Of a stretch of DNA of 32,000 nt, positions 6,421 through 22,752 are shown one piece after another. The position numbers and the translations under genes were made by a program. The stretch is taken from contig NC_005070.1 in the NCBI RefSeq assembly GCF_000195975.1, positions 1,140,001 to 1,172,000 on the forward strand, written 5' to 3'. The DNA is from Parasynechococcus marenigrum WH 8102 (GTDB lineage: Bacteria; Cyanobacteriota; Cyanobacteriia; PCC-6307; Cyanobiaceae). The notes below the pieces were generated by a model. It did not search any database. It saw only the letters and a list, made by a program, of their open reading frames with translations, and was not told where the DNA came from. Positions within the stretch are counted from its first letter, which is position 1. Each line of letters opens with the position of its first letter.

Positions 6421-6427
6421 GGATTCG

Positions 6428-6619: not shown

Positions 6620-6731
6620 CCCTTAACCAGATGCAAGTTGTTGCCGGTTGACAGCTGGTGCGCAAGCCCTCACCTGCTCGCGGGGGTCGCGTCTGATCGC
6701 CAGACTGCATTAACTGAACCGTGACGATCAC

Positions 6732-6953
6732 TTGGAGAGTCTCTGGCTTGTGCGAGGCACGGCGGACGGCGGCACCGAGTACGTCTGCTTCCGTTCCACC
6801 CGCGAATCTGTGGAGATGCTGGAAGGATTTCACCTTCCCCCGCAGATGCCTCTGATCAAAAAACGGCGTTGGTTGAATCGTTCCGAAGCCTTGAGTTGCC
6901 GCCAGAAACTCGAGCGTTCTGAGGGTTTCCGTCACGGCAGCGCTCTGTTCTGA
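6732..6953 (+). CDS. small hypothetical protein (73 aa; start uncertain, TTG listed)
   Basis: High third-position GC and protein-like composition, unlike the overlapping minus-strand R/P/G-rich ORF 6612-6935. Confidence 0.4.
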   Translation: MESLWLVRGTADGGTEYVCFRSTRESVEMLEGFHLPPQMPLIKKRRWLNRSEALSCRQKLERSEGFRHGSALF

Positions 6954-6995
6954 GCCGGTCTCGATACGCTCTTGTCATGTTGTTGCTGAAAGGAC

Positions 6996-7682: not shown

Positions 7683-8596
7683 CTCGCTGCAGCTAGCTCT
7701 GCGATAAGCCCTTCCAATTCTGGTCCGCTCACCACATAGTTGTTGCTGCAGAAGTGGCAGTTGAGTTCTGCTCCCCCGTCTTTTTCCAGCATGTCGGCCA
7801 GCTCGGTGCGACCCATGAGCAGCAGTGCCGCGACGCTGCGCTCACGGGTGCAGCGGCAGTGAAAATTCACAGATTGACTGGCGTCAGCGTCTTCGAGGGG
7901 GCGTGGATCCAGATCCGGGAAGACATCAACGAGCAGGTCTTCAAGCTGGTCGCCGCAACGATCCAGTCGTCCGCTGAAGTCTTCAATCTCGCGGCAGCGC
8001 TGATCGAGTAGTTCCACCAGTGCGGGCTCTTCCGCCGCTTTGGGCAGGATCTGCACCAGCAAACCTCCACTGCTGTGCAGTTGCTGGCTGCTGATCCGTT
8101 CACCCACAAACACCGCTGATGGTGTCTGCTCCGAGTGCAGCAGGTAGGAGGCGACGTCATCGCCGATGCCACCGCTGACCAGTTCGACGGTGCTGTTGAA
8201 CGGCTCCCCCTTGCCGTCATCCCGCATGACATGCAGGTAGCCGGTGCCTGCAGCGGCCTTGAAGTTGAAGCTGTGGTTGCCATCGGCGTCGATCACCGGA
8301 TCCAGCTCCAGGGTGTTGTCACCCACGTATCCCCGCACCGTCCCGTCCCTGCCGGCGTCCACCATCAGCCCGCGCAGTGGGCCATCCGAACCGAGTCGGA
8401 GATTCACGCGTCCATGCCGCACTTTCATCGAGCTGGCCAGCATCAGGCCCGCTGCCATGGCCCGGCCCAGCATCACCGTGGACAGGAAGGAGAGGTCGTG
8501 GCGTCGTCTTGCCTCCCGCACGGTTTCGGTGGTGGACACCGCCACCAGTCGGATGCCACCGCCGGCGGCCGTCGCTCTCACCAGGCGGTCGGCCAT
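7679..8596 (-). CDS. hslO: redox-regulated chaperone Hsp33
   Basis: 305 aa. N-terminus [18 protein letters not shown] and the C-terminal zinc centre CRCTRERS ... CHFCSNNY (CxC...CxxC) are typical of Hsp33. Confidence 0.88.
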
Positions 8597-8605
8597 GGTT
8601 GTCCT

Positions 8606-9280
8606 TCAAGCTGCGGGCAATGTAGTCACCGGTTCCAATCGTCCGTTCCGCAGTTGATAGCGCTCGCAGCTCCAGTCGTGGAACAGCTGCGGCTCATGGG
8701 TCACCACGATCAGCACCCGCTGCTTGGAGAGCTGGCTCAGCAGGTTCAGCACGTCAGCGCGCACGGACCAGTCCAAACCAGCCGTTGGTTCGTCCAGCAG
8801 CAGCAGTTCTGCGCCCCGCAGCAGTTGCACCGCCAGGGCCAAGCGACGTTGCTGGCCGCCACTGAGCCGTTCCGGCGCGTCACTCAGTCGAATGTTTGCC
8901 AGCCCAACGGTGTTCAGAGCTGCCTGCTGTTGATCGCCACCCAGTCTTCGGTGCCCTAAGCGGAGCTCCTGGGCGATGGTCAACCCCAGGAAATGGCGTT
9001 CCGGGAACTGGAACACCATGCCACCGAGCCAGCGGCGCTGCCGTTGGCTCAGTTCCTGCCCTTTCCAGCAAATGCTGCCCCGTTGCTGGCCACTGAGGCC
9101 GGCGATGACTTCCAGCAGGCTGGTCTTGCCGCTGCCGCTTGCACCGGCCACCAGCACTGGCCGGCCGATGTCGGCCTTGAGGGCGACATCTTGCAGCAAC
9201 GGCCCTGAAGCGGTGGCTGGTGCGTAGTTGAGGGCCTGAAGTTCCAGCATGGACCTCAGCTTGACCGATGATGACTCCAC
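8606..9280 (-). CDS. ABC transporter ATP-binding protein
   Basis: Walker A GASGSGKTS, signature LSGGQQRRLALA, Walker B LLLLDEPTAGLD, H-loop VVTHE. Start may be the internal Met at 9250. Confidence 0.85.
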   Translation of the reverse strand: MESSSVKLRSMLELQALNYAPATASGPLLQDVALKADIGRPVLVAGASGSGKTSLLEVIAGLSGQQRGSICWKGQELSQRQRRWLGGMVFQFPERHFLGLTIAQELRLGHRRLGGDQQQAALNTVGLANIRLSDAPERLSGGQQRRLALAVQLLRGAELLLLDEPTAGLDWSVRADVLNLLSQLSKQRVLIVVTHEPQLFHDWSCERYQLRNGRLEPVTTLPAA

Positions 9281-9295
9281 ATCACTGGTCCCTCC

Positions 9296-9745
9296 ATGGA
9301 CGTTCGTTTCCGCGAGGTGGATCCGTTCAACTGCTGGATCTGGCTGCGTTTCGCTTCACCGCCGAGTCAGGGGGAGCGCAATTACGTCGATGGCATCTTC
9401 GACAGCTGGTATGTGATCGGTCGTCTCGGCGGCTTCAACGCTGAAAACCTTCAGGTTCATGAGGAGGGGGCCGATCTCAGCTGGATGACCTACGACAACG
9501 ACGAAGCCGATTCGCTGATGCCGGCGTTGATGCACAACATGGGCCAGCTGGAATATCAGGCCGAATGGGGCCGTTGCTGGGTCGATATGGGCACCAGTGA
9601 TGGCGTCGGAATCGATGTGCTGATCAATGCCCTGCGCCAGCTCGATACGGATGTGGTGCAGATCGAAGAGCTGGTGATCGGCGGTGTCAACGAGGATTGG
9701 CCTGTGGAGGATCACCCCGACAGTCTTTTCCCGTCAGGTGGCTGA
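9296..9745 (+). CDS. conserved-looking acidic hypothetical protein (149 aa)
   Basis: Clean ATG ORF with protein-like composition. Family not identifiable by eye. Confidence 0.6.
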   Translation: MDVRFREVDPFNCWIWLRFASPPSQGERNYVDGIFDSWYVIGRLGGFNAENLQVHEEGADLSWMTYDNDEADSLMPALMHNMGQLEYQAEWGRCWVDMGTSDGVGIDVLINALRQLDTDVVQIEELVIGGVNEDWPVEDHPDSLFPSGG

Positions 9746-10466
9746 GCGGCGACGGCTGCTGATTGCACCCCAGCGTCTGGCAGCTGTTGAGACCGGCGAT
9801 CCAACCGTCCCGTTGGAACGCTCCGAACAGCACTACCTGCGACGGGTGCTGCGTTGCCGCGTTGGGGACACAATCGACGTGGTCGATGGCTGCGGATCGC
9901 TCTGGCAGGCGCAGTTGATCAGCGCTGATGCTCTACGGGTCTCGGTGCCAGCCGATCAGATTGAGCCTGTAAGAGTCCCGCGACTGGGTCTTGGCCTGTC
10001 CTTGATCCGTCGCGGCTTTGAAGACGCGCTGCGCATGGCCTGTGAACTCGGCGTGGATGAGATTCAGCCGCTTCGCGCCGACCGCTCCACGCCCCAGGCC
10101 GAGCATCGCCCCGAGCGCTGGGCCACGATCCTGCAGGAGGCGGTGGAGCAGTGCGAACGGCTGTGGTTGCCCACCTTGAAACCAGCCTGCAAGCTTGCTC
10201 AATGGCCCAACAGCAGCGACCCCGTGGCTGTGGGTGTCACCCGCCGGGCTGATACGCCTGCACTTCGTGATTGGCTCAATCAGACCACGAACTGCAACGG
10301 CATGGTCTGGTTGCTGGTGGGTCCTGAGGGGGGGTGGAGCAACGCGGAGGAACAGTTGTCCATCACCAGGGAGTGGCAACCCGTGCATCTGGGCAGCTCA
10401 ATCCTGCGCAGTTCAACGGCTGCCGTGCGCGGCAGCGTTGAACTGGTCCAGTGGCGAGATAGATGA
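9738..10466 (+). CDS. rsmE: 16S rRNA (uracil1498-N3)-methyltransferase
   Basis: RsmE-like features: N-terminal RRLLIAPQ, HYLRRVLRCRVGD, C-terminal LLVGPEGGWSNAEE ... LGSSILRSSTA. A GTG at 9738 overlaps the upstream stop; the ORF track start at 9684 is probably too early. Confidence 0.8.
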   Translation: MAERRRLLIAPQRLAAVETGDPTVPLERSEQHYLRRVLRCRVGDTIDVVDGCGSLWQAQLISADALRVSVPADQIEPVRVPRLGLGLSLIRRGFEDALRMACELGVDEIQPLRADRSTPQAEHRPERWATILQEAVEQCERLWLPTLKPACKLAQWPNSSDPVAVGVTRRADTPALRDWLNQTTNCNGMVWLLVGPEGGWSNAEEQLSITREWQPVHLGSSILRSSTAAVRGSVELVQWRDR

Positions 10467-10478
10467 ACCTGACGCCAA

Positions 10479-10934
10479 TCAGCTTTTGAACAGATCGCCG
10501 GCGATGGTCATGAACCCCTTCATGCCAGCACCCGGGCGACGCTTGCGAGCCCGAAGCCCGGTACCGGCCACCAGATTGGCCGGGGCATAGGTGCTCATCG
10601 TGACGACTGGACGGGCGGCCTGGGTTGCAGCGAGTTCTGTAGCGATGGCCTCAGCGGTGGTCTGCACCGCAGCTACTGCAGCAGCCCCTTCATCAACAGC
10701 CTTGGCCTCGCTGGTTGTGGCCTCGCTGGCGGCGGGGGCTTTCACGGCTGCCACGCCAAGAGATGGCTGCTCAGTCACTGAGGCGTCAGCAGCGGGCTCT
10801 TCAACTGCGGCTGCTTCGGGCAAGTCCAGGCTGACCGGCTCGGCGGTTTCGTCGAGCGTCAGGAAGAAGCCCTTGTTCTGGTTGAACAGCATGCCGAGAG
10901 TTCCACTCACAACAGCGATGATTCTGCGATGCAA
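10479..10934 (-). CDS. hypothetical Ala-rich protein (alternative start 10892)
   Basis: ORF with a low-complexity Ala/Glu/Thr middle and a basic C-terminus. No motif recognised. Confidence 0.45.
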   Translation of the reverse strand: MHRRIIAVVSGTLGMLFNQNKGFFLTLDETAEPVSLDLPEAAAVEEPAADASVTEQPSLGVAAVKAPAASEATTSEAKAVDEGAAAVAAVQTTAEAIATELAATQAARPVVTMSTYAPANLVAGTGLRARKRRPGAGMKGFMTIAGDLFKS

Positions 10935-10979
10935 GGCCCTGTTCAGGACCTTTGCTTACGGCACTGCAACACGGCATCA

Positions 10980-11699
10980 ATGATCTGGATTCAAGCCCTG
11001 CTGCTCAACACCGTCCTGATTGCTGTGGCCCAACGCGCCCCTCTGCTCACCCTTGCCGGCTGGGTTCATGCGGGTGCTCTGGGCACGATTCTCTGGGGTT
11101 GTCTCGGCTGGCGTGGATGGGTGGCTGTGGTGGCCTATCTGGTGCTGGGCAGCCTGGTGACCCGGCTCGGCCTGCGCGAGAAGCAGGAGCGTGGTCTGGC
11201 GGAGGCCCGAGGCGGCCGGCGTGGACCGGAAAATGTCTGGGGATCGGCAGCCACCGGTGCATGTCTCGCCCTCCTGATCGGCGCGGGTGTTGAACCCGGT
11301 CCATTGCTGTTGGTTGGATTCTCGGCAAGTTTTTCCGCCAAGCTGGCCGACACCTTCGGCAGCGAAATCGGCAAGCGCTGGGGCCGGCGGCCGGTGCTGA
11401 TCACAACCCTGCGTTCCGTGCCGCCTGGCACGGAAGGAGCCATCAGCCTGGCGGGAACCCTGGCCAGTGCCGCCGGCAGCGTGCTGATGACCCTGGTGAT
11501 GTGGCAGCTGCAACTGCTGCCATCGATCAGCGTCAGCCTGGTGGTGATGCTGATCGGTCTCCTGGCCACCCTGGCGGAGAGCCTGCTTGGGGCCCTCGCA
11601 CAGGATCGGTTCCGCTGGTTGAGCAATGAACTTGTGAATGCTCTGCAGACCTTGCTGGCCGCCGTTATGGCGATGCTGTGGCTTGGCGGCAGGATCTGA
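10980..11699 (+). CDS. integral membrane protein (multi-span; possibly DUF92/TMEM19-like)
   Basis: Repeated hydrophobic segments throughout. A longer alternative start is at 10929. The family name is from memory only. Confidence 0.6.
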   Translation: MIWIQALLLNTVLIAVAQRAPLLTLAGWVHAGALGTILWGCLGWRGWVAVVAYLVLGSLVTRLGLREKQERGLAEARGGRRGPENVWGSAATGACLALLIGAGVEPGPLLLVGFSASFSAKLADTFGSEIGKRWGRRPVLITTLRSVPPGTEGAISLAGTLASAAGSVLMTLVMWQLQLLPSISVSLVVMLIGLLATLAESLLGALAQDRFRWLSNELVNALQTLLAAVMAMLWLGGRI

Positions 11700-12111
11700 G
11701 CGGCAGCAGACCGTCCTGCTCCGCCCAGTGCTGCAAGAGCTCGATCGCGTTACGGATGGACTTGCGCAGCTGGTGTTGCGGCACGCCGGTGGCTGATGCG
11801 ATGCGTCGCACACTGTCCCCTTCGATGAAGTGCCGCTGCAACAGCTGCCGTTGCTGTGGCTTCAGCAACGCCAGGCCACGGTCCAGCCAGCGGTCCTCAA
11901 GATCGTCGTTCACCGGGTTGGTGGCCTGCTCATGGATGGCGCTGATGGGCACCATGCGTTGCGCTTGCTGACTGCTGCAGGCTTCCTGCCAGCGCTGAAT
12001 CGTGATGTTGAGAGCGTCCGCCAGACGAGCGTCCGACAGGGCCGGCCCACCACGTTGCATTTGCTCCTGCTGCATCGCCTGGCCTTTCACATAGGTGTCC
12101 CGCAGCCGCCT
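11665..12111 (-). pseudogene. sigma-70 family sigma factor, C-terminal half (regions 3-4), detached from its N-terminal half
   Basis: The frame is open from 12111 and reads RRLRDTYVKGQAMQQEQ...PALSDARLADALNIT... then the region-4 HTH LLKPQQRQLLQRHFIEGDSVRRIASATGVPQHQLRKSIRNAIELLQ. An in-frame TGA (12114-12112) sits immediately upstream, where GC content collapses. There is no region 2 and no native start. Confidence 0.85.
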
Positions 12112-12272
12112 TCAGAATGAAGCAGTTCGTGGTGGCTTTGGTGAAGACTGGAAAGCCTACGCTACAAAGAAGTTCCGTGAGGAAGTGACTCAATCATTGG
12201 TTGGTAGTCCAACTATTGGTATTGGTCAGAAAGGGCTAGTTACTGGTCCGTCTAAGCAAGTGGGTTCTAACT

Positions 12273-12596
12273 ATGCCTGCAAGTGAAGACGAGCTGTATT
12301 TGACCTGCAGCGCCTGCGGTTCCATACACACTATCTCAGATGCTGGAGACCTAGAGCTTGTAGAAGATAAGCGACCAGGTGCATCTGGTATTAATGGAAT
12401 CAAGACTACAACAGTAGGTGGTGATACCTGGCAGCAGGATAAATACATCGCTTCGGAACCACAGCAATACCAACCACCTATCACGATGATTGCTGGTGTC
12501 GCTGGTAAACAAAACCAAATCAAAGCAGACCAATCACTGCTAGAAGCATCAAACAAAGATTGGAAATCAAAGAATATCCCTACTGATTTAAAATGA
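12273..12596 (+). CDS. hypothetical protein (107 aa), first gene of coupled trio
   Basis: ATG ORF. Its stop overlaps the next start (ATGA at 12593-12596). It contains a single CSAC motif and has no recognisable family. Confidence 0.55.
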   Translation: MPASEDELYLTCSACGSIHTISDAGDLELVEDKRPGASGINGIKTTTVGGDTWQQDKYIASEPQQYQPPITMIAGVAGKQNQIKADQSLLEASNKDWKSKNIPTDLK

Positions 12597-13048
12597 CTTT
12601 TAACGACAACCACGATGCAGACAATAACGCTACTGCTAATCGAGTTCACTTTGATAGCCAGCTACCCGACATTAATCAACCTAAGAAAAGGAAGTTCACT
12701 GATGTCCTGCCTATCTTGCTGTCCTGTCGTGTTCGTTTGAATGATACACAACGGGAACAGCTGAAGAAGGTATGGCGTGACATTAGGGCTAACGAAGCAC
12801 CACAGCCTATGTCCAATCCAGGCTCCACAGTCCGTAGCTACTCAGCAGCTACTACCACCTCTGCTGAAAAGGCATTGAACACAAGTAGCCTTATCATCTC
12901 TGACTTAATCAGCACTAGAGATACCATTGCATTGACTACCATCATTGAGTTGGAACGAGTGTTTGGTATTGAGTTACTTAGCAAGGAAGCATTTATGGCT
13001 GCAGCCGAGAACTACTATCAATACAACAAAGAAGGTAGGTATGAGTGA
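12593..13048 (+). CDS. hypothetical protein (151 aa); C-terminus weakly HTH-like
   Basis: Translationally coupled on both sides. The C-terminal TIALTTIIELERVFGIELLSKEAF loosely resembles the end of an XRE-type HTH (weak). Confidence 0.55.
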   Translation: MTFNDNHDADNNATANRVHFDSQLPDINQPKKRKFTDVLPILLSCRVRLNDTQREQLKKVWRDIRANEAPQPMSNPGSTVRSYSAATTTSAEKALNTSSLIISDLISTRDTIALTTIIELERVFGIELLSKEAFMAAAENYYQYNKEGRYE

Positions 13049-13343
13049 TAACTACGGGAGTTCTTCTTATAGGCAGTTCAAACCTATCTCATCCACGCTG
13101 AAGGTATCAGCAGGTGAGGCTAAGAACCCTACTGCTAAGCAGCACCTCAATAAGCTGGACTTGCAGCCTCTTACAGAAATAAAGAGAGGAGATAGGTCTA
13201 GCACTCTTTGGAGTAAAAGAAAAGAACTTCAAGCCAAAGGTCAAAGCCTTGGCACCATTGAAACATCATCTATGTATGAACCCGATGCTCTAATTTACGA
13301 ATGTGAGCCAGATGACAACCATATTGATGAAGCAGTGTTCTAA
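13041..13343 (+). CDS. hypothetical protein (100 aa)
   Basis: The ATG at 13041 overlaps the upstream stop by 8 nt (tATGAGTGA). The longer ORF-track start at 12945 lies inside the previous gene. Confidence 0.5.
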   Translation: MSDNYGSSSYRQFKPISSTLKVSAGEAKNPTAKQHLNKLDLQPLTEIKRGDRSSTLWSKRKELQAKGQSLGTIETSSMYEPDALIYECEPDDNHIDEAVF

Positions 13344-13616
13344 CTCTGCTGGAGAGCCTAGCCTCCTCCTTGAATCTTATCTACGGATTCTAAATTGCTC
13401 AAGGCAAACCATTCAGGTTGGTGCATATACACTAACTAGATACTTGAACCTTTAGACTGTACATTCGCAACGTCCGGGATAAGGGTTCTTCAAAGCAGGG
13501 TATAGATACGGACTGAGGAAGGGTGGACCTCACGCTGGTAAGTTTTTTTCTAATTGTCTTGCCATATTTCTTCTAGGTGCAATTCCTAGACTTGCTTTTA
13601 AATACATACACACCAA

Positions 13617-13886
13617 ATGAATACCTACTCATACCTTAAAGCTAATATCGATTCACTATCTCAGCGTTGGCATGATGGACTGAAAGACTTACAAGATATA
13701 ACGCATCCACCATCGAGAGCAGAGCATATCGATTATCTAAATGAAGTTTATATTGAAGCCGCTGAGCTACATGAGTTATGCAGCCAAGAGCTTCACCCTG
13801 TTCTATTAACAAAGCTTGGTCATATTATCTCTAGAGACTTTGATCAACAAATCCAACTATACAAGAAAGTAACTAAAGCCAAATGA
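13617..13886 (+). CDS. hypothetical acidic helical protein (89 aa), first gene of second coupled trio
   Basis: ATG ORF. Its stop overlaps the next ATG (ATGA at 13883-13886). Confidence 0.55.
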   Translation: MNTYSYLKANIDSLSQRWHDGLKDLQDITHPPSRAEHIDYLNEVYIEAAELHELCSQELHPVLLTKLGHIISRDFDQQIQLYKKVTKAK

Positions 13887-14038
13887 ACTATCAACAGCAA
13901 CAGCAACCATTCCCTAAACAATCTAATACCTCTGAAGTTGATGAGATCCTTACCTTTGGTGGCAGTCAATCGTCAGCATTGCTCCAACGTATGCGTCAAC
14001 AAATGCTTGAGAAACTCTCCCAAAAATCAAAGTATTAA
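13883..14038 (+). CDS. unlisted 51-aa Gln-rich ORF (MNYQQQQQPFPKQSNTSEVDEILTFGGSQSSALLQRMRQQMLEKLSQKSKY)
   Basis: Below the ORF-track size cutoff; found by hand translation. It exactly fills the gap between 13886 and 14041, with an ATGA overlap upstream and a 2-nt spacer downstream. Confidence 0.5.
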   Translation: MNYQQQQQPFPKQSNTSEVDEILTFGGSQSSALLQRMRQQMLEKLSQKSKY

Positions 14039-14040
14039 TC

Positions 14041-14361
14041 ATGTATAACCAACCTTCCCGACATACAGGCAAACTCAAGAAAGCTGCTTCTAATCCCTTC
14101 ATTGGATCTGCATCTGGTGGTAGTTCACAAGAGATCAACACTGATGCTAATGGCATGATTTCAGCTTCTAATCCACGTCAAACGCCTTTCAGTCCTGCAT
14201 CAGAGCGTACGTTTGATATGTCTCAGTCAAAGGGTATGAACCAAGCTCAGCAATCCCGTGCAGCAGTTTCAATGCAAACACGTCATCAACAGCAAACGGA
14301 TCGATATATTCCTAAATTATTTCGACACGCTGGCTCTATGCGAATGAAACAGCATTTCTAA
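14041..14361 (+). CDS. hypothetical Ser/Gln-rich, probably disordered protein (106 aa)
   Basis: The ATG lies 2 nt after the preceding stop. Low-complexity polar composition. Confidence 0.5.
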   Translation: MYNQPSRHTGKLKKAASNPFIGSASGGSSQEINTDANGMISASNPRQTPFSPASERTFDMSQSKGMNQAQQSRAAVSMQTRHQQQTDRYIPKLFRHAGSMRMKQHF

Positions 14362-14548
14362 AAAAACAAGTACATCGTTAGATTGTTTCGCCTACAAACT
14401 AATATCGATAAGCGCCTTAAGCAGTCGACCAGGCGAATATAAAGGAATAAGGCTTTGTGGCTAATGAATTACTTTCTAGCATTAAAAATAATCTAAAAAC
14501 GAAGCCTTCACAGATCTACCAGTTTCTCAAGCTCTGCCAAATAAATTC

Positions 14549-14569
14549 AAAAAACAGTTCAAAGAACTG
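14549..14569 (-). terminator. intrinsic terminator after the radical SAM gene
   Basis: Minus-strand CAGTTC-TTT-GAACTG hairpin (14555-14569) followed by TTTTTT (14549-14554). It lies about 40 nt downstream of the stop at 14611. Confidence 0.6.
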
Positions 14570-14610
14570 AAACGCATTTAAAACCTCCAAAATTTCTTTA
14601 AAAATAAAGA

Positions 14611-15651
14611 CTATCTTTTAGGCAGCAGATCTTTGAAAGTAAGAGGTTGATAAAATTCACATTTTTTGCAAGGCGAAAGTTCTCCGCTGCTGAAATCATT
14701 AAGCACACTTTCTCTCCATTTACGCAAGGATGCGCGAAAGTTTTCATTATTTACGTTGCAAATTACCTGACTCAAGGAATAATCATGGCAACATATATTG
14801 ACATTGCCATTACCCAGCACAACTGGTTGGCTGCCAAACTTTTTGACAATACACTTTTTGGCAGGCAACGGAATCTCGAGCAGAATAATAGGCCTAAAAA
14901 ATACATAGATTCGCTTCAGCGATTGTTTTATCAGCGTAGCTACTTGAGACTTAGACTTATATTTCCATAACTTTCTAAAATAGAGTGAATCTACACCAGA
15001 AGACCTAGAGCTAAGTTTTCGATGGCGAGACATACCAGCAAAGAGATGAGACTTGTTGGCGAGTATTTCTTCTATTTGTGGATGAAAAGATGGTCCAAAA
15101 GTTAGAGCTCTTAGCTCTACTCCATTATGGCTAGATCTTTCAAAGTCGTCTAAAAATCTTGCCAAAGTAGTCAAGTAGCTATCATCAACTTGCAGCACGC
15201 CATCTTCCATTAATCCAGCATCATCAGGAAGATGCAAGCCAATACTTTTAAAAAAAGAAGGGTTATTTGCTATGAAATCTATATTATACGGAAATCCTGT
15301 AAGAGTGGTAGAAATTTGCTGCTCGAGCTTAAGATCTGCACAATGTTGAGCCATAGCCGAGAAGTCCTTATTAGCACAGGGTTCTGAATAGCCAGTCCAA
15401 TGGATATTGAGTGTGGGATAATCATGAAAATTTTTCAAGTAGCATTTAAAATTATCTAAAGTGATTGACTTATTGTTTATATTTTTGAACTTAAGGCTGG
15501 ATTTGCGCAATGTCTCCTGAGGACAATATTTACACCTAACACCACAAGCAGGTGTTGTTGTAAACTCAATATGATATTTACTGTCTTCATCTGAATCAAT
15601 AGAATGTTCTAAACTTTTTTGGCGAATGAAAGAAAGAATTTTTTCCTTCAT
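14611..15651 (-). CDS. radical SAM enzyme with Cys-rich C-terminal (SPASM/twitch-like) extension, 346 aa
   Basis: Canonical CxxxCxxC cluster motif ACGVRCKYCPQ near the N-terminus, and WTGYSEP in the position of the GGE SAM-binding motif. The C-terminus GNGNVNICCHDYSLSQVICNV...SPCKKCEFY resembles auxiliary-cluster domains. AAGGA Shine-Dalgarno about 8 nt upstream of the ATG. Confidence 0.8.
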   Translation of the reverse strand: MKEKILSFIRQKSLEHSIDSDEDSKYHIEFTTTPACGVRCKYCPQETLRKSSLKFKNINNKSITLDNFKCYLKNFHDYPTLNIHWTGYSEPCANKDFSAMAQHCADLKLEQQISTTLTGFPYNIDFIANNPSFFKSIGLHLPDDAGLMEDGVLQVDDSYLTTLARFLDDFERSSHNGVELRALTFGPSFHPQIEEILANKSHLFAGMSRHRKLSSRSSGVDSLYFRKLWKYKSKSQVATLIKQSLKRIYVFFRPIILLEIPLPAKKCIVKKFGSQPVVLGNGNVNICCHDYSLSQVICNVNNENFRASLRKWRESVLNDFSSGELSPCKKCEFYQPLTFKDLLPKR

Positions 15652-15889
15652 GACTATCCTTTTTACATATCATACCATTCGTCAATAGTTCTAGACGGGC
15701 AGGATAGACAATTCGGTAACTGTAACCTTGTGCGTAGAGAATACAGCAGGCTCTGGCACCCACCTATGACACCTTCTGGCACCTTAGAGACGGTATAGTA
15801 ATGGCATACGGGAGCAAGCAACAAGCTAAATATCAATAATGCACTGGCACTACTCAACGCAGATACTGCACATCAAATCACTACAAACC

Positions 15890-15905
15890 ATATTGACATA
15901 TTGAC
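15890..15905 (+). repeat. tandem 8-mer ATATTGAC x2, sharing the 11-mer ATTGACATATT with the right arm of the element
   Basis: Read directly. ATTGACATATT is at 15892-15902 and again at 18041-18051. The site lies about 240 nt upstream of the radical SAM start. Confidence 0.6.
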
Positions 15906-16100
15906 CACCAAACACAGCAAGAACTTTCTAGGGCGGCTGGATAATTAGTATAAGTTAGTTGCACGACACGAGCTTAAAAATAACGCCGAATCCTAGGCAT
16001 CATTCAATTCAGCAAGCAGTGCGATTACAGCACTCATAGACAAGCTATGATCAATGCATTCGCTGTCTTGCCTGATGCCTCATATACAACATAAGTGCAT

Positions 16101-16223
16101 ATGGAGTATAGACAAAAGCTAATCAAGCTACTAGCTGAACTACAAGCTAATAACAAATCTCCTGACATTATTGCGTCTGTTCAAAAAGCAATAGCAGAGA
16201 TAGATAAGAGACAGAACGACTGA
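16101..16223 (+). CDS. possible 40-aa helical ORF (MEYRQKLIKLLAELQANNKSPDIIASVQKAIAEIDKRQND)
   Basis: Hand-translated ATG ORF ending 44 nt before a hairpin plus T-run. No Shine-Dalgarno and no family. Confidence 0.3.
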   Translation: MEYRQKLIKLLAELQANNKSPDIIASVQKAIAEIDKRQND

Positions 16224-16266
16224 CACTCCTGGCATTGAGAGTCTTGCTCATCTAAGTCCAGGCATG

Positions 16267-16309
16267 GCAGTGAATGGCTGAAGGTTCGATTCCTTCCACT
16301 GCTGTTTTT
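16267..16309 (+). other. tRNA-derived minihelix (acceptor-like stem plus canonical T-arm) followed by a T-run; not a complete tRNA
   Basis: GCAGTG-AATGGCT-GAAGG-TTCGATT-CCTTC-CACTGC-TG-TTTTT. The T stem-loop GAAGGTTCGATTCCTTC matches the tRNA T-arm consensus. No D arm or anticodon arm could be built upstream. Confidence 0.55.
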
Positions 16310-16542
16310 CAAGACAAGACAACCTAATAACAACGACTATTTACAATAAAGAATACCTCAATGAGCTAATTAATTCTGGTATTGCTCTTAACGATAAAGA
16401 GACTGCAATTATAGAACAATACCTTTTCGACAACTCCGAATACTATTACCCAAAAGGCTACTCCATACCTTCTGATGTATTGAGCGATAAACGGCTCAAA
16501 CCACTGGCATCTGGTGCTGTTAAAAAGGCTAGGAGGCGTTGA
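16282..16542 (+). pseudogene. 86-codon open frame with no start codon, beginning inside the tRNA-like element and ending 1 nt before the HNH gene
   Basis: Hand translation: ...TTIYNKEYLNELINSGIALNDKETAIIEQYLFDNSEYYYPKGYSIPSDVLSDKRLKPLASGAVKKARRR*. It looks protein-like, but there is no ATG or GTG and only a late TTG. Possibly a 5'-truncated gene. Confidence 0.35.
16531..16536 (+). promoter_or_regulatory. Shine-Dalgarno AGGAGG for the HNH-like gene
   Basis: AGGAGG lies 7 nt upstream of the ATG at 16544. This supports 16544 rather than the GTG at 16514 as the start. Confidence 0.7.
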
Positions 16543-16543
16543 A

Positions 16544-17080
16544 ATGAAGAAGGTAATAGATACTGTTACTCATACAGATAAAAAAGGTAAAACAGTTAAA
16601 CAACACATTATTCAGTGTGATTCTTGCGGTAGACATACCAAGGCTCCAACCACTCCAAAAGCTCTAAGGAATAAACTTAATTCTCGTTGTGTTTGTGGTG
16701 TCCTTGGTTCAGCACCTCAATCCATACCTGAATGTCGCGGTCAAGATGGTAGAAGTTATCATCCTCTATATAATACTTACAAGGTCATGATTCAACGTTG
16801 CTATAATGAATCAGCTTTCTGCTATGAAAGATATGGTGGACGTGGTATCACTGTCTGCCAAGAATGGCTTAACGACTTCTGGATGTTTGTTTATCATATG
16901 GGTGAACGACCTGAAGGAAAAACTTTTGATAGAGTTGACAATGACTATATCTATTGTCCTGAAAACTGTCGTTGGGCTACTCCATTAGAGCAGGCTCATA
17001 ACAGGTCAAATCCGCCAATGACTGATGAAGAAGTAGAAGCTGCTATAGCACGTCAACGCCAATCAAAACGTGAATGGTAG
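16544..17080 (+). CDS. phage-type HNH-like nuclease-fold protein with N-terminal zinc ribbon (178 aa)
   Basis: CDSCGRH...CVCG zinc ribbon. YNTYKVMIQRCYNESAFCYERYGGRGITVCQEW followed by FDRVDNDYIYCPENCRWATPLEQAHNRS, a pattern I associate with free-standing phage HNH/AP2-like endonucleases. Confidence 0.65.
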   Translation: MKKVIDTVTHTDKKGKTVKQHIIQCDSCGRHTKAPTTPKALRNKLNSRCVCGVLGSAPQSIPECRGQDGRSYHPLYNTYKVMIQRCYNESAFCYERYGGRGITVCQEWLNDFWMFVYHMGERPEGKTFDRVDNDYIYCPENCRWATPLEQAHNRSNPPMTDEEVEAAIARQRQSKREW

Positions 17081-17569
17081 GAACGTAGCAAACATCTCTA
17101 CGAATGGTGTCCTCATAAAAGAACTTACATCAAGCTGTAGAAGCTCCTGTAAGGCTGTTTAGAGTGGTCTCTAGGGTATTTATCCTGTTGACCACTTTTA
17201 ACGGCTTCTAGGCTTATTTATGCACCAATAACCTAGTAAAAATACCAAAAAAAATAATTTCAAATGAAGTCGATAAGATTTGCCAGAGATGCGTCAGCCC
17301 ATATATCGATGGTATTGGGCGCAATTTCCTCCCCATGCACCCATCTAAGCGCTGGAGATTGGCGACTTGGGTGAAAACACACCTATGTATCGCGCGAGTG
17401 CGCCTGCGATATCTAGGCGCGGCTGAAGAGGTAACTAAATCAAACCTAGCCTTACGGACGGAAGTCACTACTTCTGCAGCTGGTGGTGGCTGCACAGCTG
17501 TAGGATTTTTTTGCACGCCAGACTGACAATCTAGGCGTAACTAGGTAGGCTTCAAGCTATGACTGGTTT

Positions 17570-17603
17570 GATTGATCAGCACATACTCAGTCACTGATCA
17601 ATC
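17570..17603. repeat. perfect 10-bp inverted repeat GATTGATCAG / CTGATCAATC with 14-nt spacer
   Basis: Read directly (17570-17579 and 17594-17603). It abuts the CATACCAACAT motif at 17604-17614. Confidence 0.8.
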
Positions 17604-18031
17604 CATACCAACATGGGTTGAGATAGCAGTGATGCAGTGAGCTGCTGCACTCACTATCGGACTGGTATGAATCAAGGGATGTAGGCACCGTGCTTACTGC
17701 TCATCCATGCTGTAGATGCCAAGCGGAGTTACGCACGGAGTGCAAGTAACGGAGCGGATACAACACTGTTGATATCTATCTAATGATTGTTATTATCTAC
17801 TTATATTGATTGCATCTGGTTTTATTGCTAACTGTTTTGTGCAATATTTATACTAAACCGTGCAATTTACGTGCCTTTTGCCCATATTTTAGTAGTGCAT
17901 CGGTAGCGAAAGAATAGAGAGCTAAATACTTGGCAAAGTATCACTAACTGTTCATTGGAAAACTAAAGAGTATTCATTCAATCCAGATGCACCGATCCTT
18001 GCTGACCTTGTATCGGCTTGGTATAGAGGCT

Positions 18032-18051
18032 CATACCAACATTGACATATT
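18032..18051 (+). repeat. composite 20-mer CATACCAACATTGACATATT whose halves recur elsewhere in the element
   Basis: CATACCAACAT is exact at 17604-17614 and 18032-18042. ATTGACATATT is exact at 15892-15902 and 18041-18051. Related (C)ATACCA / TGGTAT units are at 15671, 17663, 18018, 18064, 18075, 18091, and in opposite orientation at the left end (12197-12207, 12216-12222). Confidence 0.75.
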
Positions 18052-18131
18052 AACAGGGATCGACATACCAAGTCCATACCAGGCAGTGGGTATGGTGCAA
18101 ACGACAGACTGTCACTAGGGAGCTTGAAAAG

Positions 18132-18434
18132 CCAGGGCACCCGAATCGTGACGGCCCGATCGCGCCGGAAGTGAAGCACCTGTCCGTTGGTGGCCGTGCT
18201 CAGGAATGTTGAGAGTTTAAGACCGCGCCGTGGATCAAACCGCTCCCAGCCACGAATCAACCCAACACGGGCCTCCTGCTCGAGATCGTCCCGCTCCTTT
18301 GGTCCCCGTCGGGTCTGGCGCGAGGCAATCATCCCGGCGATGCCGAGGTGATTGAGAACCTTGATGTTGCGTTGGCGAACTGCAGGGGGAAGAGCCCTCC
18401 GCAGCTCACGTCGCTGCCATCCGGATGTGGTCAT
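18132..18434 (-). pseudogene. sigma-70 family sigma factor, N-terminal half (region 2), truncated by the insertion
   Basis: From the ATG at 18434: MTTSGWQRRELRRALPPAVRQRNIKVLNHLGIAGMIASRQ...DDLEQEARVGLIRGWERFDPRRGLKLSTFLSTATNGQVLHFRRDRAVTIRVPW. These are regions 2.1-2.4 (GLIxxxERFDPxxG, RDxxxxIRVP). The frame then runs into AT-rich island sequence for 59 unrelated codons, to the stop at 17952. Confidence 0.85.
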
Positions 18435-18552
18435 GGTGCTGAAGCAACTGTCTTCAGCGTTTGTTGTTTCGGGTTCTGCGACCGCCCACCTGGGTGCCTG
18501 ATTCCGGCACGAAGGTGCCAGATATGGTCGCGGTGTTGAACAGCTCTGACCC

Positions 18553-18717
18553 ATGGATTGGCACCCAGAGGCCTTAGCCGCCTTGAAGAAGGACGTGCCG
18601 TTCTTCGTTCGCCCTGCCGTTCGCCGGCGGGTTGAGTCGATGGCCAGCGAAGCTGGCCGCAGCAGCATCGACCTCAGCTTCTACGCCGAGGCGAAGGCGA
18701 GCATGGCGCCCAGCTGA
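18553..18717 (+). CDS. small PCP_red-like protein (54 aa; protochlorophyllide-reductase C-terminal-domain family)
   Basis: Hand-translated: MDWHPEALAALKKDVPFFVRPAVRRRVESMASEAGRSSIDLSFYAEAKASMAPS. The W..EA...L..vPfFVR...r..vE pattern matches my recollection of that small domain. It is below the ORF-track cutoff. Confidence 0.6.
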   Translation: MDWHPEALAALKKDVPFFVRPAVRRRVESMASEAGRSSIDLSFYAEAKASMAPS

Positions 18718-18720
18718 GGC

Positions 18721-18903
18721 TCAGGGGGTGTCCAGGTCGCAGCGATTCAGCTCCGGCTGGGTCAAGCGATCAATGATGCGGGCCATGTCGATCGAAGTGA
18801 GTTCACCGTTGTCGTCCCACTTGAGGGTGGTCTTCCGCTGAGCAGGAGGCTGCTGTGCAAAGGGCTGTCCTGTTGTTTGCTCGAAGGAACGATCGGCCAC
18901 CAC
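18721..18903 (-). CDS. small hypothetical protein (60 aa)
   Basis: ATG ORF with protein-like composition. No family recognised. Confidence 0.4.
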   Translation of the reverse strand: MVADRSFEQTTGQPFAQQPPAQRKTTLKWDDNGELTSIDMARIIDRLTQPELNRCDLDTP

Positions 18904-18946
18904 ATCCGAATGTCAGGGTTCGGAGATATTAGCGATCCTTGTGGCT

Positions 18947-19621
18947 TCAGTCACCCAAGGACAGGTGTTGTTGTGGTCGGGGCAACAATTCCGCCCAGGT
19001 CTGCAGGGCCGTCCAGCCGCGGATTCGCCGGTGGATGAAGTGGTGCCCCTCGCCATTGAGATGAAGGCCATCGGGTTCCATCCAGGTCAGCCAGTCCGGC
19101 TCCTCCAGCATGGATCGGTGCAGTGGCAGAAAGGGGATGTCGGCGTCGCGACAGGTTTCGGCCAACACGGCTTCATGGGCCGCCACATCCTCATTGCTGC
19201 ACCAGAGACAGTCCGCAAAGGGCATGACGTGCTCATCCACTGGCGTCAGACCGATCACCAGCACCTGCGTCTCCGCTTTCATCTCGTTGAGCAGCTGCCC
19301 CATGCCGAAGCCATAGGCCTCAAGGTTCAGTTGCTAGCGACCATCCGGCCGACCCACCCGTGCGGTGTCGTTGAGTCCGACGGCCAGCAGTACACCCTCC
19401 GGGGTCTGACGCCGCAGCTCGCCGCGACACTGCCACTCGCTACGCCAGCGAGCGGCCACCCGTTCCAATCCATCGCCACGGATGCCCAGGGGGTAAACCA
19501 CCGGAGCCGCCTGCAGCTGCATCCAGTTCCTGCGCAGACGCTCGCACCATCCCCCGGCCTCTCGATCTCCCCAGCCGTACACCCCGCTATCCCCGATCAC
19601 CAGCAGCTGCTTGGGTTTCAT
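18947..19621 (-). pseudogene. SGNH/GDSL-family hydrolase interrupted by one in-frame TAG (19336-19334)
   Basis: The upstream part has block I LLVIGDSGVYGWGD and block III LLAVGLNDTARVG. After the TAG the same frame continues QLNLEAYGFGMGQLLNEM... to block V PDGLHLNGEGH. The two ORF-track ORFs (19334-19741 and 18947-19303) are in the same frame. The ATG at 19621 overlaps the phnE stop. Confidence 0.75.
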
Positions 19622-21126
19622 GCCGCCTCCTGGAGCCGTTCGCAGACCAGCTCGCCGAGCAACGTCAACGCGGCATAAACCATGACCAACCAGGCCACCA
19701 GTGGCCAGTAAAAGGAGGACAGTGCCTCCATCAGCTGCCACCCCAGGCCGGCTCCCCCCACCAGACCGACGACGGCCGTATCCCGGAGGATCACATCACT
19801 GCGGTAAGCGGCGTAAGCGAGATACCTCTGACTCGCTGGCGACAACACACCGAACAACCAGGCGGAGCGGGGCGGAGCGCCCAGGGCAACCATGGCCTGT
19901 TGGTCACGGACATCCACGCGCTCGAGCCCGTCCTCCAGCACCAGCCCCATCACACCGCTGTGGTGCAGGCCCAAGGCCAACGCCGCCACGGCCAGGGTCG
20001 GTTTGCTGGCCAGCATGAGCAACAACGCCGTCAGGGGTGGCGGCAACAATCGCATCAGCGTCCAGCCCGCTTTCAGGATCCAGCCCGCAACAGGCCCTGG
20101 AGCGATCAACCGCAGCAACGGTGGCAGGCCGATGGCAACTCCGGAGGCCAGCAGGGTGATCAGGAGGGTGGCACCAATCAGCTCCAGCCATGGCGTCTCC
20201 ATCCATGCCTGACTCAGACCTTCACTCCACAGTGCGGGCGGAGGCCACGGAGTCCCCTCAACCCAGCTGGGTGCTGAGAGATCGTGGTTCAACCCGCTGC
20301 TCCAGGACGGCGTGACCAGCGGCAGCATCAGTGCCAGCAGCAGCAGGCCATGGCGGGCGGACAGGCGCCGGATCATCAGATTCACCGCCACCAGCAGCAG
20401 CGCCATCAGCCACAAGCCGCTCCAGAGTTCACGAAAGCGCAGGGATTGCAGGCTGAGCATCAGCTCGGTTCCCAATCCCCCAAGGCCGAAGATGCCCAGC
20501 AGCAGGGAGGATCGCAGGGCACAATCCAGCCGATGGCCGATGTGGTCGCGCAACGCTGTGGCCAGGGGGGGCATCAGGCTGGTGCACAGATTGATCACGG
20601 CAGGAACACCGGCGCATTGCAGGGCAATGAGAGCCGGTGGTTCATGGCGATCCAGCTGGTCTGCCAGAACCCTGGCCAGAAGTGCCGAATAGGGAAGAAC
20701 AATGGCCAGCACGGCCACCCAGCCGTTCAGGCCGAACAGCTGAAGCAACAACAACCCCCAGATCAGTTCATGGATTGATCGCAATGGCGCCAGGCCACGC
20801 CGCACCACCAGGGCCGGCCAGCGCCGCCCCATCAGCGTGGACCAGATCGTGGTGGAACAGATCAGCCCAAGGATCAGTCCAATCAGACTGCTCAAGCTCC
20901 AGGCCAGGAGAGCCGTCAGGGCTGTGATCTGCAGCCCCATGAGCTGATGCTTCAGCAGTGACGGCTCCAGGGATGGTTGCAGGGCCGCCAACCAGAAGCG
21001 ACCGATCTGTTCGGCTCCACCGCCATGGAGATCGTGCAACAGCACCATTCCAAGAGGCAGCAAAACCAGCGCTGGAGCCAGAGCCATCAGTGCGGGAGCT
21101 GGCGTCAGTCCTCGCTGTAAAGCCAT
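19618..21126 (-). CDS. phnE: phosphonate ABC transporter permease (fused two-domain)
   Basis: 502-aa polytopic membrane protein immediately downstream of phnC and phnD, with overlapping gene boundaries. Confidence 0.75.
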   Translation of the reverse strand: MALQRGLTPAPALMALAPALVLLPLGMVLLHDLHGGGAEQIGRFWLAALQPSLEPSLLKHQLMGLQITALTALLAWSLSSLIGLILGLICSTTIWSTLMGRRWPALVVRRGLAPLRSIHELIWGLLLLQLFGLNGWVAVLAIVLPYSALLARVLADQLDRHEPPALIALQCAGVPAVINLCTSLMPPLATALRDHIGHRLDCALRSSLLLGIFGLGGLGTELMLSLQSLRFRELWSGLWLMALLLVAVNLMIRRLSARHGLLLLALMLPLVTPSWSSGLNHDLSAPSWVEGTPWPPPALWSEGLSQAWMETPWLELIGATLLITLLASGVAIGLPPLLRLIAPGPVAGWILKAGWTLMRLLPPPLTALLLMLASKPTLAVAALALGLHHSGVMGLVLEDGLERVDVRDQQAMVALGAPPRSAWLFGVLSPASQRYLAYAAYRSDVILRDTAVVGLVGGAGLGWQLMEALSSFYWPLVAWLVMVYAALTLLGELVCERLQEAA

Positions 21127-22729: not shown

Positions 22730-22752
22730 GTCAAACGTTGAATCGGAAAAGC

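What the first reader, a model, noticed from the sequence alone, without database searches (positions are those of the whole stretch)
11665..18434. A sigma factor gene is cleanly split by a 6-kb foreign element
- On the minus strand the N-terminal half (18434->18132) ends ...RDRAVTIRVPW, which is the end of sigma region 2.4.
- The frame opening at 12111 continues (R)RLRDTYVKGQAMQQE...PALSDARLADAL... through a region-4 HTH.
- Joined, the halves give a protein of about 250 aa with normal group-3-type sigma architecture.
- Both halves are in the same order and orientation, separated by 6020 bp of AT-rich DNA.
- Gene-interrupting elements in sigma genes (the B. subtilis skin element in sigK) and in cyanobacterial nifD, fdxN and hupL act as developmental or regulatory switches. 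I do not recall an equivalent in a unicellular marine picocyanobacterium sigma gene.
Basis: partly seen in the sequence, partly recalled or inferred. Interest (0 to 1): 0.85.

Follow-up and report, generated by a model that had tools for sequence, protein, structure and literature searches.

The report
Sigma gene broken by phage DNA
In the marine cyanobacterium Synechococcus WH8102, a sigma-factor gene is cut cleanly in two by 6 kb of DNA that comes from an uncultured T7-like phage, but nothing shows that the insert can cut itself back out, so it is most likely an ordinary strain-specific gene knockout, not a genetic switch.

Summary
The window is Synechococcus (Parasynechococcus marenigrum) WH8102. 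SYNW1164 (18434->18132, minus strand) and SYNW1159 (12108->11665) are the two halves of one 248-aa group-3 (SigF/SigB-like) sigma factor. Four other Synechococcus genomes carry the gene uninterrupted in the same neighbourhood, including A18-46.1 (98.3% nucleotide identity in both flanks).

The break falls after Trp101. The insert is 6020 bp (12111-18130, GC about 0.40 against 0.62) and is flanked by only a 3-bp repeat (GGC).

The switch interpretation is not supported:
- A six-frame Pfam scan of the insert finds no integrase, serine recombinase or transposase.
- There are no terminal inverted repeats and no att-like repeats.
- The insert was found only in WH8102.
- Its left 1.2 kb is 88.5% identical to metagenomic contigs that carry a T7-like single-subunit RNA polymerase. 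That homology starts exactly at the junction, inside a phage gene that the junction truncates.
- Phage and host share only about 1 bp of microhomology there.

Best reading: a phage DNA fragment was captured by illegitimate recombination, leaving a static, recent pseudogene. The rest of the insert carries ORFans, a radical-SAM/SPASM gene, an HNH endonuclease and 1 kb of non-coding DNA. Regulated excision is not formally excluded (about 4%).

The parts
18132..18434 (-). N-terminal half of the sigma factor gene (codons 1-101, sigma region 2; part of SYNW1164). The annotated ORF runs on for 59 spurious codons into the insert, to a stop at 17952.
   Evidence: (Sigma70_r2 at residues 37-94).
11665..12108 (-). 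C-terminal half of the sigma factor gene (codons 102-248 plus stop; regions 3-4, HTH; SYNW1159, annotated 'hypothetical').
   Evidence: (r4 at residues 175-229).
18131..18133 (-). Copy 1 of the 3-bp GGC (sense strand) found at both junctions. It is either a target-site duplication or junctional microhomology.
   Evidence: the blast breakpoints overlap by 3 bp in comparisons with three uninterrupted genomes.
12108..12110 (-). Copy 2 of the 3-bp GGC.
12111..18130 (.). 6020-bp foreign insert, GC about 0.40, found only in WH8102.
12111..12286 (+). 3' part of a phage gene. The full gene is 86 aa in contigs L006 and L007; its first 27 codons are missing here, cut off by the junction.
12273..12596 (+). 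SYNW1160, a 107-aa ORFan, 92% identical to the L006 phage-contig gene.
12593..13048 (+). SYNW1161, a 151-aa ORFan, 92% identical to P0061 in the phage contigs.
13041..13343 (+). 100-aa ORFan, 82% identical to the L006 gene.
13617..14361 (+). Three small ORFs (89, 51 and 106 aa). The first and third are weakly similar to L006 genes (about 57-58% aa identity). L006 has a 377-aa gene where the 51-aa ORF lies here.
14611..15651 (-). SYNW1162, a radical SAM/SPASM-like protein (CxxxCxxC motif). It is a very rare family: 3 hits among 5.8 billion proteins, one of them the WH8102 sequence itself. The 78% homolog sits next to a tyrosine integrase in an unrelated contig.
16514..17080 (+). SYNW1163, a phage-type HNH endonuclease.
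   Evidence: (phrog_374, E 4e-40).
17081..18130 (.). About 1 kb right arm with no convincing ORF, no Pfam hit and no Rfam hit. It contains a cluster of TTGGTAT/ATACCAA words at 18018-18071.

Best explanation
A 6-kb piece of DNA from an uncultured, T7-like (single-subunit RNA-polymerase-encoding) cyanophage lineage was joined into the chromosome of the WH8102 lineage inside a group-3 sigma factor gene, by illegitimate (non-site-specific, microhomology-level) recombination. One plausible route is capture at a double-strand break during an aborted infection. The result is a strain-specific low-GC islet and a sigma gene split into two dead ORFs (SYNW1164 and SYNW1159). The event is recent enough that both halves are still free of stops and frameshifts.

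Shown: the split, the empty site in relatives, the phage origin of the left third, the lack of recombinase and att sites, and the truncation of a donor gene at the junction.

Inferred: the joining mechanism, the single phage origin of the whole 6 kb, and that the gene is non-functional and the insert immobile.
For: - Empty site with identical breakpoints in comparisons with three genomes; no host bases are lost and 3 bp are repeated.
- Six-frame Pfam scan of the insert: only a weak radical-SAM match (below cutoff); no integrase, resolvase or transposase.
- No terminal inverted repeats and no long direct repeats.
- L006/L007 5911-7152 matches window 12107-13345 at 88.5% nucleotide identity. L006 carries a T7-like RNA polymerase (PF00940; phrog_414, E 1.5e-106).
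- The homology begins exactly at the junction, inside an 86-aa phage gene that is intact in two metagenome samples. Phage and host share only about 1 bp there (CG-C).
- The phage sequence upstream of the junction is not found at the other end of the insert, so this is not a Campbell-type attP.
- The tetranucleotide signature of the insert matches the non-homologous part of L006 (r = 0.83 for the left part, 0.57 for the right) better than the host (0.3-0.5). The word TTGGTAT is about 10-fold enriched in the insert and also occurs 9 times in L006.
- WH8102-lineage changes in the sigma gene are 7 non-synonymous to 3 synonymous, against 29:71 pooled for 20 neighbouring genes. This is a weak hint of relaxed constraint.
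- A neighbouring GDSL-lipase gene is also broken in WH8102, so gene decay at this locus is tolerated.
Against: - Both halves are perfectly intact and in frame. That is what selection for re-assembly would also produce.
- The relaxation signal is not significant: 7:3 against 3:3 in the sister lineage, and singleton changes at conserved sites are 3 against 3.
- A 3-bp flanking repeat could be a true target-site duplication made by an enzyme.
- Serine-recombinase elements such as fdxN and skin have only very short direct repeats (from memory), so a short repeat alone does not exclude recombinase action in trans.
- The origin of the right two-thirds of the insert and of its right end is not demonstrated. 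No phage contig covers it.
- Only one phage lineage serves as comparator for the left end.
Confidence: 0.7

Rival explanations
1. The insert is the remnant of a site-specifically integrated prophage or integrative island. An integrase, since lost or acting in trans, placed a larger element into a secondary att site in the sigma gene, and internal deletions later reduced it to 6 kb.
For: - The content is phage-derived.
- T7-like cyanophages with integrases are known to integrate without lysogeny (PMC8776855, found).
- WH8102 is reported to have phage integrases next to 10 of 14 atypical-GC regions (PMC3744912).
- The closest homolog of the radical-SAM gene lies beside a tyrosine integrase in contig L002.
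- The insertion is clean, with a 3-bp repeat.
Against: - There is no integrase or integrase fragment in six frames.
- The common core between phage and host is only about 1-3 bp.
- The left junction lies inside a phage ORF, and the phage sequence 5' of it is not at the right end.
- The site is not a tRNA or any other usual att site.
Confidence: 0.13
2. The insert is a non-autonomous transposable or otherwise defined mobile element that makes 3-bp target-site duplications and is moved by an enzyme encoded elsewhere.
For: - A 3-bp repeat flanks an otherwise perfectly conservative insertion.
- The right arm is about 1 kb of non-coding DNA with clustered TTGGTAT/ATACCAA words that could be protein-binding sites.
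Against: - There are no terminal inverted repeats and no transposase.
- No second copy was found in any collection searched.
- The left end is an internal point of a phage gene.
Confidence: 0.07
3. The element is a regulated intervening element, like skin, nifD, fdxN, hupL or phage regulatory switches. It excises under some condition and restores a functional sigma gene.
For: - The split is clean and in frame, both halves are undamaged and in the same orientation, and precise removal of 6023 bp would restore an ORF 96% identical to a functional-looking ortholog.
- Short flanking repeats are compatible with serine-recombinase systems (from memory).
Against: - There is no element-encoded recombinase and no recombination-site architecture.
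- The insert was found only in WH8102; the four related genomes examined have the intact gene.
- The insert looks like a random phage fragment.
- The rejoined allele is absent from the protein collection, which does index the exact WH8102 island protein in 81 blocks of assemblies.
- No paper in the searchable library mentions SYNW1159-1164.
Confidence: 0.04
4. The two halves work as a two-polypeptide sigma factor. A sigma-2-domain protein (SYNW1164) and a sigma-3/4-domain protein (SYNW1159) would be expressed separately and assemble on RNA polymerase.
For: - The split falls exactly between domains, after region 2.4.
- The C-half has possible in-frame GTG/ATG starts a few codons after the junction.
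- Two-subunit sigma factors exist (SigO-RsoA of B. subtilis; from memory).
Against: - The C-half has no evident promoter. Upstream of it lies the antisense strand of phage genes.
- The N-half gains a 59-aa nonsense tail.
- No relative is organised this way.
Confidence: 0.02

Closest known systems
Strain-specific low-GC genomic islands and relic phage DNA in marine Synechococcus/Prochlorococcus (the WH8102 atypical-GC regions of Palenik 2003 as summarised in PMC3744912; relic prophages in RS9917 and WH8016, PMC2784084 and bioRxiv 10.1101/325100)
   Same: Low-GC, strain-specific DNA full of ORFans and phage-like genes (HNH endonuclease), with flanks syntenic to relatives.
   Different: It sits inside a protein-coding regulatory gene rather than next to a tRNA. 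It has no adjacent integrase and is very small (6 kb). Its donor is an undescribed lineage carrying a T7-like RNA polymerase that is only about 22% identical to those of known autographivirids.
Intervening elements excised by dedicated recombinases: B. subtilis skin in sigK (SpoIVCA), and the Anabaena nifD (XisA), hupL (XisC) and fdxN (XisF) elements; also phage regulatory switches such as SPbeta in spsM and phi10403S in comK (from memory)
   Same: A phage-related element interrupts a gene, here also a sigma factor gene, cleanly and in frame, so precise excision would restore it.
   Different: There is no element-encoded recombinase, no recombination sites beyond 3 bp, no conservation of the element among relatives, no differentiation programme in this unicellular organism, and no evidence of excision.
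Integration of T7-like cyanophages (P-SSP7-type, integrase plus attP matching a tRNA gene; 'integration but not lysogeny', PMC8776855)
   Same: DNA of a T7-like cyanophage ends up in a picocyanobacterial chromosome.
   Different: Only a 6-kb internal fragment is present. It is not at a tRNA, there is no integrase, and there is no att core. The junction cuts a phage gene.
Illegitimate (microhomology-mediated) capture of foreign DNA at chromosomal breaks
   Same: Junctions show 1-3 bp of homology, the donor breakpoint is arbitrary and lies inside a gene, and no mobility genes are present.
   Different: The target is perfectly conserved, with no deletion and an apparent 3-bp duplication. That is tidier than many end-joining events.

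Membership tests
Sigma-70 family, group 3 (SigF/SigB-like, 'type III' in cyanobacterial nomenclature) | Sigma region 2 domain | tested here: met
   PF04542 E 6.4e-11, 42.3 bits against cutoff 24, residues 37-94.
Sigma-70 family, group 3 (SigF/SigB-like, 'type III' in cyanobacterial nomenclature) | Region 4 HTH in the same polypeptide, contiguous with region 2 | tested here: met
   r4_2 and r4 hits at residues 175-229, below Pfam cutoffs. TIGR02937 scores 58 bits against cutoff 42.9, spanning residues 36-228. The SigBFG profile aligns at 9-223 of 227 across the junction. Full-length 248-aa orthologs align without a gap at the junction.
Sigma-70 family, group 3 (SigF/SigB-like, 'type III' in cyanobacterial nomenclature) | Specific subfamily assignment (SigF or SigB/F/G equivalog) | tested here: inconclusive
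   The best hits are NF005644 SigF (84 bits, cutoff 261) and TIGR02980 (69 bits, cutoff 234), both far below cutoff. The 'type III' label comes from the A18-46.1 annotation.
Regulated intervening elements (skin; nifD, fdxN and hupL elements; phage regulatory switches) | The element interrupts a gene so that precise excision restores the ORF | tested here: met
Regulated intervening elements (skin; nifD, fdxN and hupL elements; phage regulatory switches) | Element-encoded site-specific recombinase (tyrosine or serine) | tested here: not met
   No Pfam recombinase, integrase or resolvase hit in any ORF or stop-to-stop segment of 38 aa or more in six frames, at E up to 0.1. None in PHROGs.
Regulated intervening elements (skin; nifD, fdxN and hupL elements; phage regulatory switches) | Recombination sites (direct repeats and/or flanking inverted repeats) at both ends | tested here: not met
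   Only a 3-bp GGC is shared, and there are no inverted repeats at the termini. A 3-bp core alone would not exclude a serine recombinase.
Regulated intervening elements (skin; nifD, fdxN and hupL elements; phage regulatory switches) | Observed precise excision or a rejoined allele | not testable with these tools
   There is no read-level access. One weak proxy is available: the exact rejoined 248-aa protein is absent from the 15-billion-protein collection, while the exact island protein SYNW1161 is indexed in 81 blocks of assemblies.
Regulated intervening elements (skin; nifD, fdxN and hupL elements; phage regulatory switches) | The element is conserved at the same site in related strains | tested here: not met
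   A18-46.1, MAG CACKQV01, NHGV01 and AG-670-A05 all have the uninterrupted gene.
Prophage or integrative island (Campbell integration) | Genes homologous to a phage genome | tested here: met
   88.5% nucleotide identity over 1.2 kb to T7-like-RNAP contigs L006/L007. HNH endonuclease of phage type.
Prophage or integrative island (Campbell integration) | Integrase plus attL/attR sharing a core, with the element ends contiguous in the free phage | tested here: not met
   No integrase. About 1 bp of phage-host identity at the left junction, and the phage sequence upstream of the junction is absent from the right end. The right end has no phage comparator.
IS element or transposon | Transposase and terminal inverted repeats | tested here: not met
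IS element or transposon | Target-site duplication | tested here: inconclusive
   The 3-bp GGC at both junctions could be a duplication or microhomology.

The most novel reading that the evidence does not exclude
The insert is a domesticated, non-autonomous intervening element. A recombinase encoded elsewhere in WH8102, or supplied by an infecting phage, would excise it precisely under some condition and so switch on a group-3 sigma factor. That would be the first skin-like switch in a unicellular marine picocyanobacterium.
Probability: 0.04. Interest if true: 0.85.

Novelty: new member of a known kind. Interest (0 to 1): 0.3.

Why it matters
- **For WH8102 as a model strain.** It lacks one intact group-3 sigma factor that its closest relatives have, and probably also a GDSL lipase. 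SYNW1159 and SYNW1164 should be annotated as one pseudogene. This matters for regulatory-network and comparative studies.
- **For phage ecology.** The insert is a molecular fossil that links an uncultured, highly divergent phage lineage with a T7-like RNA polymerase to a clade III Synechococcus host. It also shows that phage DNA can enter picocyanobacterial chromosomes without integrase or att sites.
- **As a switch.** On present evidence it does not provide a new example of a programmed gene-rearrangement switch.

Tried and rejected
- **Recombinase or transposase hunt.** Pfam on the annotated ORFs and on all six-frame segments (two calls, 17 and 18, failed on stop codons), PHROGs, PADLOC and NCBIfam. 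I found only a radical SAM/SPASM-like protein and an HNH endonuclease.
- **Intron or structured RNA.** An Rfam search at E up to 1 over 11500-18700 gave only a chance snoRNA hit. I rejected the intron idea.
- **Terminal repeats.** None are meaningful.
- **Known-phage matches.** blastn of the whole insert and tblastn of two insert proteins against 50,697 phage records gave no match.
- **IMG/VR scans.** Scans with the radical-SAM protein, the 151-aa, 107-aa and 100-aa proteins and the L006 RNA polymerase found nothing.
- **JGI metagenome scans.** The 151-aa protein found nothing. The RNA polymerase found one short relative, L017.
- **A wasted search.** A concatenated query of all small insert ORFs returned nothing, probably because low-complexity words swamped it.
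- **HNH family search.** It returned 105,705 representatives and was uninformative about context.
- **Other interrupted alleles.** Truncated hits P0022-P0031 are contig ends or frameshifts, not insertions.
- **Relaxed-selection tests.** Inconclusive.
- **Integrase near tRNA-Ser.** The 380-aa ORF at 192-1334 has no Pfam hit.
- **Literature.** No paper mentions SYNW1159-1164. Supplements of PMC3744912 are not held, and the Scanlan 2009 review is not held.

Full report
**Identity of the window.** The N-half ORF is 100% identical to WP_083810626.1 / CAE07679.1 (SYNW1164) of Parasynechococcus marenigrum (Synechococcus sp.) WH8102, on a 2,434,428-bp contig. The C-half is CAE07674.1 (SYNW1159, 'hypothetical'). 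The ORFs between them are SYNW1160 to SYNW1163.

**Observation.**
- On the minus strand, 18434->18132 encodes 101 residues ending ...RDRAVTIRVPW. From 12108 the frame continues RLRDTYVKGQAMQQE... to the stop at 11667-11665.
- The joined 248-aa protein is 95-96% identical over its whole length to the 248-aa 'RNA polymerase sigma factor, type III' of Synechococcus A18-46.1. It is 76-87% identical to about 20 further full-length orthologs, with no gap at the junction.
- It carries Sigma70_r2 (E 6e-11) and weak region-4 matches. It passes the TIGR02937 cutoff and aligns to the SigB/F/G profile from position 9 to 223 of 227, straight across the junction.

**Empty site.**
- The A18-46.1 locus (L001) is colinear with window 1666-12110 (98.3% identity) and 18131-28433 (98.2%). 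The two alignments overlap by 3 bp in the intact gene.
- The more distant genomes L012 and L013 (82-85% identity) give exactly the same breakpoints. MAG L016 also has an uninterrupted 248-aa gene in the same gene order.
- In sequence terms, the intact gene reads GTGCCCTGGCGGCTGCGGGAC. WH8102 reads GTGCCCTGGC|TTTTCAAG...(6020 bp)...TCTGAAG|GCGGCTGCGGGAC.
- No host base is lost, and GGC is present at both junctions.
- Three independent re-sequencings of WH8102 are 99.99-100% identical over the parts of the region they cover. L009 spans the whole insert and both junctions. L010 reaches the N-half junction. L011 ends inside the insert. The structure is real.

**What the insert is.**
- Its GC content is 0.36-0.45, against about 0.62 in the flanks.
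- On the plus strand it holds a run of small, translationally coupled ORFs (12273-14361). On the minus strand it holds a radical-SAM/SPASM-like gene (14611-15651). Then comes a phage-type HNH endonuclease (16514-17080; phrog_374, E 4e-40), and then about 1 kb without convincing ORFs.
- A Pfam scan of every stop-to-stop segment of 38 aa or more in all six frames gave no further domain. There is no integrase, resolvase or transposase.
- There are no terminal inverted repeats and no long direct repeats. There is no Rfam family, so an intron is excluded. There is no PADLOC defence-system hit.

**Origin.**
- A variant of SYNW1161 (P0061, 92% identical) lies on metagenomic scaffolds L006 (9 kb), L007 and L008.
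- L006 has GC 0.40. It encodes an 873-aa T7-like single-subunit RNA polymerase (PF00940; phrog_414, E 1.5e-106) followed by small ORFans.
- That polymerase is only about 22% identical to those of known autographivirids. The best E-value is to Synechococcus phage S-CBP2. The lineage is therefore undescribed. A second relative, L017, has a polymerase 79% identical.
- L006 5911-7152 aligns to window 12107-13345 at 88.5% nucleotide identity, with weaker similarity continuing to about 14200.
- Crucially, the homology starts exactly at the left junction. That point lies inside an 86-aa phage gene (L006 5830-6090) that is intact in two samples. WH8102 lacks its first 27 codons.
- At the crossover, phage (...ACACGAC|TTCAG) and host (...GCCGCC|AGGGC) share essentially one base.
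- The phage sequence 5' of the crossover is not present at the other end of the insert. The two ends are therefore not the halves of an attP at that position.
- Composition supports a common origin for the whole insert, though less strongly for the right part. Tetranucleotide usage of the left part correlates at r = 0.83 with the non-homologous 5.9 kb of L006. The right part correlates at 0.57-0.58 with L006 and 0.64-0.68 with the left part. Correlations with host flanks are 0.3-0.5.
- The heptamer TTGGTAT occurs 9 times in the insert, against 0.9 expected from a first-order model. It occurs nowhere else in the window, and it occurs 9 times in L006.
- The radical-SAM gene is a rare, mobile cargo gene with only 3 hits among 5.8 billion proteins, one of which is the WH8102 sequence itself. 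The 78% homolog lies next to a tyrosine integrase in an unrelated contig of GC 0.47, and only the gene itself is shared.

**Mechanism.**
- The anatomy is an arbitrary donor breakpoint inside a gene, 1-3 bp of junctional homology, no mobility genes, no att architecture, and a non-tRNA target.
- This fits illegitimate capture of a phage DNA fragment best, for instance repair of a chromosomal break in a cell that survived infection. That step is inferred, not shown.
- The 3-bp GGC may be a fill-in duplication of a staggered break, or microhomology with the unknown donor right end.
- The consequence is a sigma gene split into an N-terminal ORF, which reads on for 59 nonsense codons, and a promoterless C-terminal ORF.

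**Is the gene being kept for re-assembly?** I polarised substitutions with an outgroup.
- The WH8102 lineage has 7 non-synonymous and 3 synonymous changes in the sigma gene. A18-46.1 has 3 and 3. Twenty neighbouring genes pooled have 29 and 71.
- Three WH8102 changes (E46K, P74L, A82T) hit positions otherwise invariant in 21 orthologs, but A18-46.1 also has three such singletons.
- This is at most a hint of relaxed constraint, and it is compatible with a recent event.
- The exact rejoined protein is not in the collection of about 15 billion proteins. The exact WH8102 island protein SYNW1161 is indexed in 81 blocks of the assembly collection, and the three loci I compared are 99.99-100% identical to WH8102. 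This is weak negative evidence, because assemblies report the majority sequence.

**Comparison with known systems.**
- The finding resembles skin in sigK and the heterocyst nifD, fdxN and hupL elements only in the clean interruption of a gene, here also a sigma gene.
- It fails the defining features I could test: an element-encoded recombinase, recombination sites, and conservation across relatives.
- It belongs with the strain-specific low-GC islands and relic phage DNA already known from marine picocyanobacteria (PMC3744912; PMC2784084; bioRxiv 10.1101/325100).
- Its unusual points are an intragenic location, the absence of an integrase, and a donor from an undescribed T7-like lineage.
- T7-like cyanophages are known to integrate via an integrase at tRNA genes without lysogeny (PMC8776855). 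This case differs in every testable respect.
- I found no paper mentioning SYNW1159-1164.

**Verdict.** The 'switch' interpretation is unsupported but not formally excluded (about 4%). The most likely story is a recent, strain-specific knockout of a group-3 sigma factor by captured phage DNA. Interest is modest. It corrects the annotation of a model strain and gives a host link for an unknown phage lineage, but it is not a new kind of system.

Noticed in passing
window 18947-19621 (minus strand): The GDSL-lipase gene two genes from the sigma gene is also broken in WH8102. It has a CAG->TAG nonsense mutation at codon 96 and a 1-bp deletion near the 3' end. A18-46.1 and MAG L016 have an intact 223-aa gene. 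Re-sequenced WH8102 contigs are identical, so this is not a sequencing error.
   Followed up: partly
L006 1-9011 (ENA ERZ23498629 scaffold_12922); also L007, L008, L017: Contigs of an apparently undescribed phage lineage at GC 0.40. They carry a T7-like single-subunit RNA polymerase only about 22% identical to known autographivirids, followed by ORFans. The lineage is absent from IMG/VR and from the 50,697 GenBank phage records at the sensitivity used. The WH8102 insert suggests a clade III Synechococcus host.
   Followed up: partly
window 12111-18130 and L006: The heptamer TTGGTAT/ATACCAA occurs 9 times in the insert (0.9 expected), never in the 26 kb of host DNA, and 9 times in L006. Three copies cluster at 18018-18071, next to the right junction. 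It may be a phage regulatory or protein-binding word.
   Followed up: partly
L002 1-3129 and L003 (ENA ERZ24794625 / ERZ24794615): The only close homolog (78%) of the radical-SAM/SPASM protein SYNW1162 sits 375 bp downstream of a P4-type tyrosine integrase (Phage_integrase plus Arm-DNA-bind_3) in a contig of GC 0.47. Only the gene itself is shared with WH8102. A 45% homolog lies in a contig of GC 0.25 (L004). The gene seems to travel as cargo between very different elements.
   Followed up: partly
window 17952-18668 (minus strand): The original annotation of SYNW1164 (238 aa, CAE07679.1) starts 78 codons upstream of the start used by all orthologs (ATG at 18434) and ends in insert-derived nonsense codons. 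RefSeq calls a 200-aa version 'sigma factor'. Neither record flags a pseudogene.
   Followed up: yes
window 192-1334 (minus strand), next to tRNA-Ser 1505-1593: A 380-aa ORF in a stretch of lower GC (0.52-0.54) beside a tRNA-Ser gene has no Pfam hit. I did not establish whether this is the edge of another island.
   Followed up: partly
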